From positions 225,273 to 289,272 of the forward strand of contig JAQGDQ010000296.1 of NCBI GenBank assembly GCA_030141605.1: a stretch of 64,000 nucleotides of DNA. The letters are read 5' to 3'. Both the position numbers and the translations under genes were made by a program. Shown one piece after another: positions 43,901 through 46,900 of the stretch. The DNA comes from Tubiluchus corallicola (lineage: Eukaryota > Animalia > Priapulida). The notes below the pieces were generated by a model. That model was not told the origin of the DNA. It did no database searches and saw nothing but the letters and a program-made list of their open reading frames with translations. The first letter of the stretch is position 1. Every line of letters begins with the position of its first letter.

Positions 43901-46900
43901 TTAGCTGATGGGATATTAGGGAAATTTTGGTAAATCATATATACTTTTACTTGTGTCAGTCTTTTAACAAATTGTGTTCAGGTTCAAAGACTTCTGTAAA
44001 ATATTGCACCATAATTTTATTGTGATATAGTAGGCTTAATTTTAATGTGGTGTAGTAATTTGTGCTAGCAAGCATTTTTTATTTTGCATAGTCCCAAACA
44101 TAAAAATTGGTTCATTTTGTTTAATATTACATGAGAATGGTTATTCACGTAAAACACTTCCACATGGTTTTGTAGATTGTATTACTACTGAAAATTACAA
44201 TATACTAAAACATTTATGAAGAAAATTGATGAAGTTAAATCAAAATGTTTTGCAAATTTGTCTTGTTTTTTAATGTCTAAGCAGACAATGAATCATGAAG
44301 CTCAGAAAATTTGTCTTCCTGTTTCTTCCCAAATGTGGTAGAGGTAGAGTGAAATCAGAGTCATTACCATATCTATTGAACTTCAAAGAATGTATCAATT
44401 CTGTAGATTTACGTGTGATTTTTACATTTCTGCTCTTTAAAATGAATTTCCTGTTCTTCAAAATGTTATTTTGTTCATGGTTTTCCAGGCTCACATACTT
44501 GTACTTGCTCTTTTTACAATACTTCTTCTGTATCTGTGTTTGTGACAATGTGCATGCATGTGTATGTATTTCTTTTGTTATATCACTTTCTATATGGCAA
44601 TTTAATGACATTGTGTCATCCTAGACAAGGAACCTGCTCATCATTTATGGTTTCTCTTATAAAATAATTATTTACTGTGACCAAGTTTCTTATCTATCGT
44701 TAAATATTTGCTTGTATGATAGCTGTTTTTATAAATATGCTCATCTACATTATATAACTATATCTGTCTCTGATTCTAAATGTTACTTTCTTTTGTGTAC
44801 GTACCATTTGTCATTTCTTCTTTAGGACTATCTTCTCGCTGTCCATAGTCTACATTCTTGGGTTGTGTTTACTAGCTGTTACTGCCATTCCAGTAGTAGG
44901 AGGATCCTATCAGAGTGACCAGGATTTAAATCCGTAAGTTAGCCTGAGCACAACCTGTCGCCCTTTTCTTTTTGTCTATTTTTGATGCTTTTTTCTCTAG
45001 GACGATATTGTCACTTTCTCTAGTGTACATTTGCGGGTTGACCTTAATGGCGATTACTGCTATTCCACCAGTAGGCGCCGGAGATGATGGCATGTTGAGT
45101 CCGTAAGTTCTTATTGTAAGGTTTGTTAAATGCTTAATATGGCATCTGAAAGCGTAGAAAGCATAAATTTGCGTTACCAGTAAAGATGCAATTATTAATT
45201 ACGTATCATCATCTTGAATGTTTCATGAGTGTACAGTGGGTAAAAATAGTTTTTTAAAGTCATGCTGAGATGAATATTTGAACTGCACTAGTGTTTTTTG
45301 CTGCCGTTCTTTCAGCATAATATCACTATTTTTAATACATTTGAGCAGATCAGTTTTTGGATACTTGCGCCCTAGACATTTGGGGCATGGATATTTGGAC
45401 CTCAGACAATTTGGACCCCAGACATTTGGGCTTGGATATTTGGGCCTCAGACAATTTGCACCCCAGACATTTGGGCTTGGAAACACCCTAGCATATTTGG
45501 GCCCAAGACATTTGGGTCCTAGTATATCGGCTTGGAAACTTGGGTCCTGGATATATGGGCACCAGCTAGTTAAGCCTTAAATATTTGATGTTAGATTTGA
45601 TAACATTCACTGTGAAGTGAAACTTTCATTATTTCATCACTTTTGTTGTCTTGAACCGTACTGTGTACAGCAAATAAACATGCGAAATCTCAAGGCAAGG
45701 CAAATAATCTAGTATAAGTTTTCTTGAGTTTGGAGGAAGTTAAGTTTCAGTTCTACTGAGAGCATTTGAAAAACAGAAATTTGGCAGCTGGGTTTCACTT
45801 GTAGTTTTTGGTTAATGCATGTCTATATGTTTTCTGTGTTTGTGTCTTTTTAAGTTTGATATTTTCTGTTAATATCACAAAATCCAAAAATAGTATTTAG
45901 TTATTATTCTTAAGACTTCTTTTATTTTTTAACTTTCATCCAAAGACAATCTAGTGACTGATTGTTACATCATTCTTTTTTTCTTGATTGTGGGGGTAGG
46001 AGGAAGAGGGGGAGAAGAAAGGAAGAGAGGTGGTGATAAGAGGAACAGAGCAAAAATAGTCAAGTGTTCACAGTGCATGCATGGCTGTAATAGTAAAGTA
46101 ACACCAAGCCTGATTAGTAAGTGGATGCGGGTGACAGCTTGTACCTACCCATATACGTTTTTTTACCGCTTTAATATTTTCTCATTGAAGGAATACTTAA
46201 TGCATCCCAATGGTCAACCGTTTATGACGATAACTCCAAATTAGAAGGGGAATTGGATAGTTATTGAAAAAACTATTTGTCAGGGTGTGGTTATTATTCA
46301 AAATACATTTAAGATCGCTTTCCATAAGATATCTACCTAGCAGGTTTCATGACTCTAGCTTATATAATTGGAACTTATTGAACCAATTGCTCTTTTAGAT
46401 ATTGCATATGCCAGTTTGCCATAGAATAATTAGTGTACATCTGCAACATCCTACTAGGTTACCAGCATGTGCAAAAAGATTTAGTCCCACCCAACACTGT
46501 AAGAAGACTGAGTGATAAATTCTAAGTGAGAAACTGTTTTCAACAAAGTCGTAAACAGAAGGTTCTGCTGTAGTACTCGTATAGTGGCTGCAGTTGGAGT
46601 CAGATAAGAAATATGTACAATGCAAATTTTTACTGTTTAGGTAGGTGACTTTGATCTAGCAACTGCCTTTTAATGCCAGAGACATGTTTGGGCGAGACAC
46701 ACAGCCCTGACCATTATAACATTGCTTATTTAGTTTTTATTACCTTATTTACCAAAGATCATTTTAATCTTTTCAGAATGCAGCATTCTTGTAGTCAAAA
46801 CGTTTTCGGATTCACCTTCAATTTGAACAAATGAGTAGAGAAACTGATTGCACAGAGTGAATTAATCGTTTACCTTACAGAGTGGATCACACACATTATA

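What the first reader, a model, noticed from the sequence alone, without database searches (positions are those of the whole stretch)
44826..45102. Tandem duplicated TM3 exons in a PEPT-type transporter: probable mutually exclusive splicing switch
Seen in sequence: two paralogous exons (108 and 102 nt), both phase 2-2, both with a strong acceptor and an identical CC|GTAAGT donor, both stop-free. Both keep the TIxxxSxxYxxG half of the PTR2 signature and TAIPxVG. They differ at many synonymous sites, and the outer loop differs completely (GSYQSDQDLNP vs AGDDGMLSP), which suggests an old duplication with both copies under selection. The intron between them is 67 nt (next shortest in my model: 176 nt) and has no AG from 44949 to the acceptor, with a branch-like CTGAG about 14 nt from the donor. 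Established: a short donor-to-branch distance can enforce mutual exclusion sterically. Inference: including both exons would add a helix and invert the topology of a 12-TM MFS fold, so the gene likely makes two isoforms that swap TM3 and the TM3-4 outer loop. I do not recall this being described for SLC15, but I could not search the literature.
Basis: partly seen in the sequence, partly recalled or inferred. Interest (0 to 1): 0.82.

Follow-up and report, generated by a model that had tools for sequence, protein, structure and literature searches.

The report
Swappable helix exon in peptide transporter
A peptide-uptake transporter gene, likely from a priapulid worm, carries two intact, diverged copies of the exon for its third membrane helix and the outer loop behind it, and likely splices in one or the other to make two transporters predicted to differ away from the peptide-binding site, a new case of a well-known splicing trick.

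Summary
Observation confirmed. Exons A (44826-44933) and B (45001-45102) are paralogous, phase 2-2, stop-free and 67 nt apart in an SLC15A1/2-type gene whose closest relative is a Priapulus caudatus transporter. Both look selected: dN/dS about 0.29, family-invariant residues kept, a dead-copy simulation gives p about 0.003. The gene is spliced in one RNA assembly, whose upstream contig stops 3 nt past the upstream exon, exactly where A and B first differ, as a fork between two isoforms would cause. No contig was laid on A or B, so junctions are unseen. Skipping both creates a stop; including both stays in frame. Steric exclusion is plausible but unproven: the only consensus branch site lies 52 nt from the donor, not 14. 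The kind is well known, and the family has precedent: Drosophila Slc15 gene CG2930 is listed with a tandem duplicated exon (exon unknown). An amphioxus gene model holds two copies of this same TM3 segment, likely an independent duplication. The scan had not noted this on other DNA.

The parts
44826..44933 (+). TM3 exon copy A (108 nt, phase 2-2): third helix plus outer TM3-TM4 loop; closer to the Priapulus segment (17 of 21 helix residues)
44934..45000 (+). 67-nt intron between the copies; candidate branch adenines at intron positions 14 (CTGAG) and 52 (only yTRAy match)
45001..45102 (+). TM3 exon copy B (102 nt, phase 2-2); more derived (13 of 21 helix residues shared with Priapulus, 15 of 21 with A)
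44723..44825 (+). 101-nt AG-free zone and pyrimidine tract before exon A, the longest of the gene's 18 modelled acceptors
43788..43929 (+). Upstream constitutive exon (TM2 and first half of the PTR2 signature); ends in a split Trp codon, so skipping both copies makes a TGA stop
47523..47713 (+). Downstream constitutive exon (TM4-TM5), Pfam PTR2 E 7e-27
42703..62845 (+). Modelled coding span of the SLC15A1/2-type gene: 19 exons, 744 aa (A form) or 742 aa (B form) without the unfound N-terminal exon(s); 9 of 10 listed RNA joints fall at modelled introns

Best explanation
The gene holds two intact, diverged copies of the TM3 exon, and it likely splices in exactly one per message, which would give two PepT-type transporters that are predicted to differ on the outer face of helix 3 and in the outer TM3-TM4 loop but not in the peptide-binding site. 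Shown: the two copies, their splice signals, the open A, B and A+B frames, the stop made by skipping both, and splicing of the rest of the gene. Inferred: use of both copies (codon statistics, assembly fork). Inferred mechanism: double skipping is removed by the junction stop (nonsense-mediated decay); double inclusion is in frame, so it must be blocked at splicing, most likely because the 67-nt intron leaves at most 52 nt between donor and any branch adenine (about even odds for this steric step versus regulated exon choice). Inferred function: tuning of turnover, pH response, lipid fit or surface delivery by tissue or stage, not a new substrate range.
For: pS 0.50 vs pN 0.21 over 24 codons, dN/dS about 0.29, Fisher p 0.009-0.044 by rounding. 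If one copy had decayed neutrally since the duplication, as few amino-acid changes plus intact AG, GT, no stop and no frameshift arise in 0.3% of 4000 matched simulations from either ancestor. All 6 A/B differences among 21 helix positions fall at variable family columns (1.6-2.1 bits), none at the 5 columns that are 99-100% invariant in 104 homologous segments; 5 of 6 lie on the face opposite those columns (clustering p = 0.07). RNA-like run X6: record 1 is 263 nt and the upstream exon ends at its position 260; A and B share exactly 3 first bases, while skipping would fork at +0 and intron retention at +1. The segment matches PepT1 83-103 and PepT2 113-138; the PepT2 peptide-contact residues named in PMC8565842 (passages) all lie outside it, and the PepT1 TM3-TM4 loop 109-116 is disordered there. 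A Branchiostoma belcheri model (KAI8496097.1) carries two tandem copies of the same segment.
Against: No contig was laid on A or B and no A or B junction was seen; the two last letters of the X6 contig are not printed, and the first A/B difference is a third-codon position where a simple allele could also cause a fork. The amino-acid deficit alone is weak (p = 0.06-0.07) and the joint p is inflated by ascertainment, as only intact copies get noticed. On a profile built without them, B scores 45.0 and A 49.9 against a 5th percentile of 47.6 and median 60.7 for 103 homologues. Priapulus caudatus RefSeq isoforms X1 and X2 share one TM3 segment, and 0 of 17 multi-member protein clusters from other animals show a TM3 swap. 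The only consensus branch site is 52 nt from the donor, just over the <50-nt criterion of PMC5740500.
Confidence: 0.78

Rival explanations
1. Only one copy (probably A) is spliced; the other is a left-over duplicate that has not yet decayed or is used at trace level.
For: B is below the 5th percentile of homologue profile scores and is further from Priapulus than A is; no junction to B seen; no second isoform in Priapulus records.
Against: Synonymous divergence about 0.8 with unalignable flanking introns, yet perfect donor, acceptor, frame and all invariant residues kept; contig end at the first A/B difference.
Confidence: 0.12
2. Both copies can be included together (or B is an extra cassette), giving a protein with an added helix or a re-entrant segment.
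For: A+B is in frame without a stop; the short intron has a perfect donor, a strong pyrimidine tract and a consensus branch site at -16; C. elegans splices introns down to about 40 nt (PMC4165533, passage); the amphioxus model joins both copies, though it is a 194-aa hypothetical prediction.
Against: An extra helix after TM3 would invert the rest of the 12-helix MFS fold (inference from established topology); an always-A-first message would not fork at +3 in the RNA assembly; all other introns of the gene are 176 nt or longer.
Confidence: 0.05
3. Both copies are used exclusively but the two proteins behave alike; the pair is kept because exon choice is split between tissues or stages (subfunctionalised splicing), not because the products differ.
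For: Helix changes are conservative and on the variable face, both loops carry two acidic and no basic residues and no glycosylation sequon; binding-site residues are outside the exon.
Against: Loop sequence and length have diverged almost beyond alignment; catalogued events of this kind are often tissue-specific and thought to fine-tune function (PMC9741552, abstract and passages). This rival shares the splicing claim of the best explanation and disputes only its last step.
Confidence: 0.3

Closest known systems
Drosophila CG2930 (Slc15 oligopeptide transporter) tandem duplicated exon substitution
   Same: Same transporter family (PMC6216580, passages) and same class of event (listed in supplementary table S4 of PMC9741552).
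   Different: The table gives no exon. Insect-like genomic frames have TM2 and TM3 in one exon, so the fly event is likely a different unit and an independent origin.
Human SLC12A1 (NKCC2), SLC7A2 (CAT-2A/2B), SLC39A14 (ZIP14), SLC25A3 mutually exclusive homologous exons
   Same: Solute carriers that swap an internal homologous exon; listed in supplements of PMC8373072 and PMC9741552. That NKCC2 and CAT-2 isoforms differ in affinity is recalled, not read here.
   Different: Different folds; no SLC15 entry in the human lists. Here the swapped part is predicted to lie outside the substrate site.
Steric-interference mutually exclusive exons (alpha-tropomyosin exons 2/3 type)
   Same: Short distance from upstream donor to the branch point of the downstream exon; 57 of 629 human clusters meet <50 nt (PMC5740500, passages).
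   Different: Branch point not mapped here; 14 nt or 52 nt depending on which adenine is used.
Priapulus caudatus SLC15A1-like XP_014666265.1 / XP_014666271.1; vertebrate PepT1 and PepT2
   Same: Sister to the window's protein in a quick ML tree, SH-aLRT 100; 56% identity against 42% for the next hit; same architecture.
   Different: Records show one TM3 segment only; genomic DNA could not be inspected for a hidden second copy.
Branchiostoma belcheri hypothetical protein KAI8496097.1
   Same: Two tandem diverged copies of the same TM3-plus-loop segment.
   Different: Unvalidated 194-aa model that joins both copies; its copies match each other (11 of 21, plus a shared loop) better than the window's (7-8 of 21), so likely an independent duplication.

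Membership tests
SLC15A1/2-type POT (PTR2) transporter | Pfam PTR2 match and closest solved relatives PepT1/PepT2 | tested here: met
SLC15A1/2-type POT (PTR2) transporter | Complete open frame with EFCERF motif, both helix bundles and the large extracellular domain | tested here: met
   (N-terminal exon or exons not found)
SLC15A1/2-type POT (PTR2) transporter | Proton-coupled di/tripeptide uptake | not testable with these tools
   inferred from homology
Tandem duplicated mutually exclusive exons | Neighbouring homologous exons of similar length, same phases and splice-site type | tested here: met
Tandem duplicated mutually exclusive exons | Each copy alone gives a full open frame with the same flanking exons | tested here: met
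Tandem duplicated mutually exclusive exons | Transcript evidence for each copy joined to both neighbours | tested here: inconclusive
   only the contig end at +3; no contig on A or B
Tandem duplicated mutually exclusive exons | No transcripts joining the two copies | not testable with these tools
   only assembled contigs of one RNA-like run were on hand
Tandem duplicated mutually exclusive exons | Both copies conserved in related species | tested here: inconclusive
   present in two DNA runs; no relative's genome reachable; Priapulus proteins show one copy
Steric-interference exclusion | Donor-to-branch distance under about 50 nt | tested here: inconclusive
   14 nt for the non-consensus site, 52 nt for the only yTRAy site
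Docking-site/selector RNA pairing | Intronic element complementary to flanks of both copies above chance | tested here: not met
   best duplexes within about 2.3 SD of 15 shuffles, driven by a purine tract near 46000 pairing with pyrimidine tracts; no element shared above chance by both copies

The most novel reading that the evidence does not exclude
The TM3-plus-loop exon of animal PepT transporters has been duplicated into a splicing switch independently in priapulids and amphioxus (and perhaps, in a larger unit, in fly CG2930), marking a peripheral helix outside the binding site as a repeatedly used tuning knob that lets one gene supply PepT1-like and PepT2-like activities.
Probability: 0.25. 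Interest if true: 0.62.

Novelty: new member of a known kind. Interest (0 to 1): 0.38.

Why it matters
It adds an undescribed helix-swapping event to a drug-relevant transporter family and offers a natural pair of proteins identical except for TM3 and its outer loop, a direct test of what this peripheral helix does in the POT transport cycle. With the amphioxus model it hints at convergent duplication of one exon. It does not reveal a new splicing mechanism or a new kind of system.

Tried and rejected
No whole genome is held for the window. No indexed RNA holder was listed; X6 came as a same-label addition and its RNA status is a guess, though its contigs skip introns. No X6 contig lies on A or B at 85% or 80% likeness, but constitutive exons at 54961-55042 and 57027-57152 are uncovered too, so the hole is uninformative. 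The downstream X6 contig starts at 47553, 30 nt inside the exon, which fits an allele fork at 47583 and says nothing on A/B. A search with a lineage-specific exon found no same-species protein; a search with the A/B/Priapulus profile returned only the Priapulus protein and one insect-like fragment among 1216 candidates. Of 150 listed (of 191) representatives, 5 had more than one matched stretch and only 1 had a true tandem TM3. Of 19 multi-member clusters returned, 2 were dropped (Octopus models lack the exon; turtle rows not read) and 0 of 17 showed a TM3 swap. Nine metagenome loci each hold one copy; 8 are genomic with the same phase-2 acceptor, but none spans both flanking introns. Docking-site scan negative. 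The exon concerned in CG2930 was not found: absent from supplements of PMC7954323, PMC8373072, PMC13232068, none readable for PMC6071210, Hatje and Kollmar 2013 not held. No intron-length data for priapulids found. The Atlas added nothing on the amphioxus model. The first decay simulation set the threshold at B's own score and is biased for B; I rely. The careful tree did not finish; the quick tree is cited. No structure or complex prediction was run.

Full report
Observation. The two exons are at the stated places: A 44826-44933 (108 nt) and B 45001-45102 (102 nt), each behind a pyrimidine tract and AG, each followed by GTAAGT, with one open frame, and 67 nt apart. Joined by script to the upstream exon (ending 43929) and the downstream exon (starting 47523), A, B and A+B are all open, whereas skipping both keeps the frame but creates TGA at the junction. 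The helix parts align far above chance (z = 11), the loops barely (z = 2.0), the flanking introns not. Two DNA runs from two studies have single contigs across both exons; the two differences in X3's contig are intronic.

The gene. tblastn with homologues and RNA joints give a 19-exon model from 42703 to 62845, 744 or 742 residues without the missing N-terminal exon(s), no internal stop. It matches Pfam PTR2 and solved PepT1 and PepT2 best. The nearest named protein is from Priapulus caudatus, 56% identical against 42% for the next, and sister in a quick ML tree of 26 rows with SH-aLRT 100, so the animal is likely another priapulid. The exon itself is old: 8 genomic loci of unnamed animals have the same phase-2 acceptor before the same helix, each with a single copy, and many single-exon frames from other animals start at the same place.

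Are both copies alive? Over 24 aligned codons pS is 0.50 and pN 0.21 (dS 0.82, dN 0.24), Fisher p 0.009-0.044. Simulating one constrained and one dead copy, matched on synonymous change, so few replacements occur in 6-7% of runs and together with intact splice sites and frame in 0.3%; ascertainment weakens the second figure. The 6 helix differences avoid all 5 columns that are 99-100% invariant in 104 homologous segments, and 5 of 6 sit on the variable face (p = 0.07). Against: B scores below the 5th percentile of homologues on a profile built without the priapulid sequences, A just above it, and A resembles the Priapulus segment (17 of 21) more than it resembles B (15 of 21), so B is the more derived copy.

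RNA. One run, X6, is assembled RNA by its behaviour: 9 of 10 listed joints fall at modelled introns. It differs from the window by about 5% in two exons, so it is a diverged population or close relative. Its contig across the upstream exons ends 3 letters after the exon end (record length 263, exon end at 260). A and B share exactly their first 3 bases; skipping would diverge at +0 and intron retention at +1. Assembly contigs end at forks, so this is what two coexisting isoforms would produce. My rough hand estimate from about ten contig ends along 2.2 kb puts chance at 0.5-2%, the upper figure allowing that alleles favour third positions. It stays indirect: the last two letters are not printed and nothing was laid on A or B, though other short exons are uncovered too.

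Mechanism. Double skipping would be removed through the junction stop (inferred); double inclusion would not, since it is in frame, and would add a helix to a 12-helix fold (inferred), so exclusion has to act at splicing. The intron between the copies is the shortest of 18 by far (next 176 nt). PMC5740500 (passages) counts donor-to-branch distances under 50 nt as potential steric blocks, in 57 of 629 human clusters. C. elegans splices introns near 40 nt (PMC4165533, passages); I found no figure for priapulids. I put the steric step at about even odds. Exon A has the gene's longest AG-free zone (101 nt, yTRAy at -53), which suggests a distant branch point and regulated choice (inference). No docking-site pairing stood above shuffles.

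Function. The segment corresponds to PepT1 83-103 and PepT2 113-138 and the loop behind. In PMC8565842 (passages) the PepT2 peptide contacts are R57, Y94, K161, N192, W313, L316, N348, E622, W649, L650 and I653, none in this segment, and the PepT1 TM3-TM4 loop is disordered. One simulation study names TM3 among the temperature-responsive parts of human PepT1 (PMC12383401, passage). The isoforms therefore likely share substrates and differ, if at all, in kinetics, lipid fit or trafficking; the loops have equal charge and no sequon.

What is known. Tandem duplicated exon substitution is a catalogued class, about 1% of human and fly genes and enriched in membrane transport proteins (PMC9741552, passages and sections 14 and 22). 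Human lists include SLC12A1, SLC7A2, SLC39A14 and SLC25A3 but no SLC15 (supplement searches). The fly list includes CG2930, an Slc15 member (PMC6216580, passages); I could not learn which exon, and unseen supplements of Hatje and Kollmar 2013 probably say. Five searches for mutually exclusive or duplicated exons in SLC15/PepT found nothing relevant (listings only); the library lacks most subscription papers.

Spread. A profile search of 1.84 billion representatives gave 1 of 150 listed hits with two tandem copies of this segment, a Branchiostoma belcheri hypothetical protein, whose copies resemble each other more than the window's: likely an independent duplication, but an unvalidated model. 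Priapulus records show one copy, and 0 of 17 readable multi-member clusters show a swap. The duplication is thus lineage-restricted, not a family trait.

Verdict. A real and probably functional pair of mutually exclusive exons (0.78), new for this exon and lineage, of a well-known kind with a precedent in the same family. Interest 0.38. Earlier notes on this genome report other exon arrays and a priapulid affinity; none covers this gene or a look-alike.

Noticed in passing
window 43927-43929 with 47523: The residue before TM3 is Trp here and in Priapulus, against Lys or Arg in most homologues; its split codon turns double skipping into a stop, a built-in guard for the exon pair.
   Followed up: partly
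protein P0144 (Branchiostoma belcheri KAI8496097.1), residues about 96-175: Two tandem diverged copies of the TM3-plus-loop segment in an amphioxus gene model; candidate independent mutually exclusive pair.
   Followed up: partly
proteins P0014, P0058 (Octopus bimaculoides): Both models lack the TM3 exon altogether, perhaps an assembly gap or missed exon.
   Followed up: no
window 45365-45481 and 47902-48366: A 45-nt (15-16-nt subunit) minisatellite in the intron after exon B, and a 465-nt GT/GCGT microsatellite after the downstream exon.
   Followed up: no
window 45980-46060: Purine-rich tract in the intron after exon B that pairs with both pyrimidine tracts in silico, no better than shuffles.
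   Followed up: yes
window 26698-27138 and 27363-28046 (+): Open frames of 146 and 227 codons without a Pfam match above cut-off; they look like a decayed retrotransposon first ORF (impression only). 17891-18310 (-) also looks like a LINE fragment.
   Followed up: partly
window 52830-53400: Intronic repeat covered by many X6 contigs at high depth: a transcribed interspersed repeat.
   Followed up: no
loci L002-L009: In these unnamed animals the TM3 exon seems to end at a GC-type donor (GCAAGT) if phase 2 is kept (read output).
   Followed up: no
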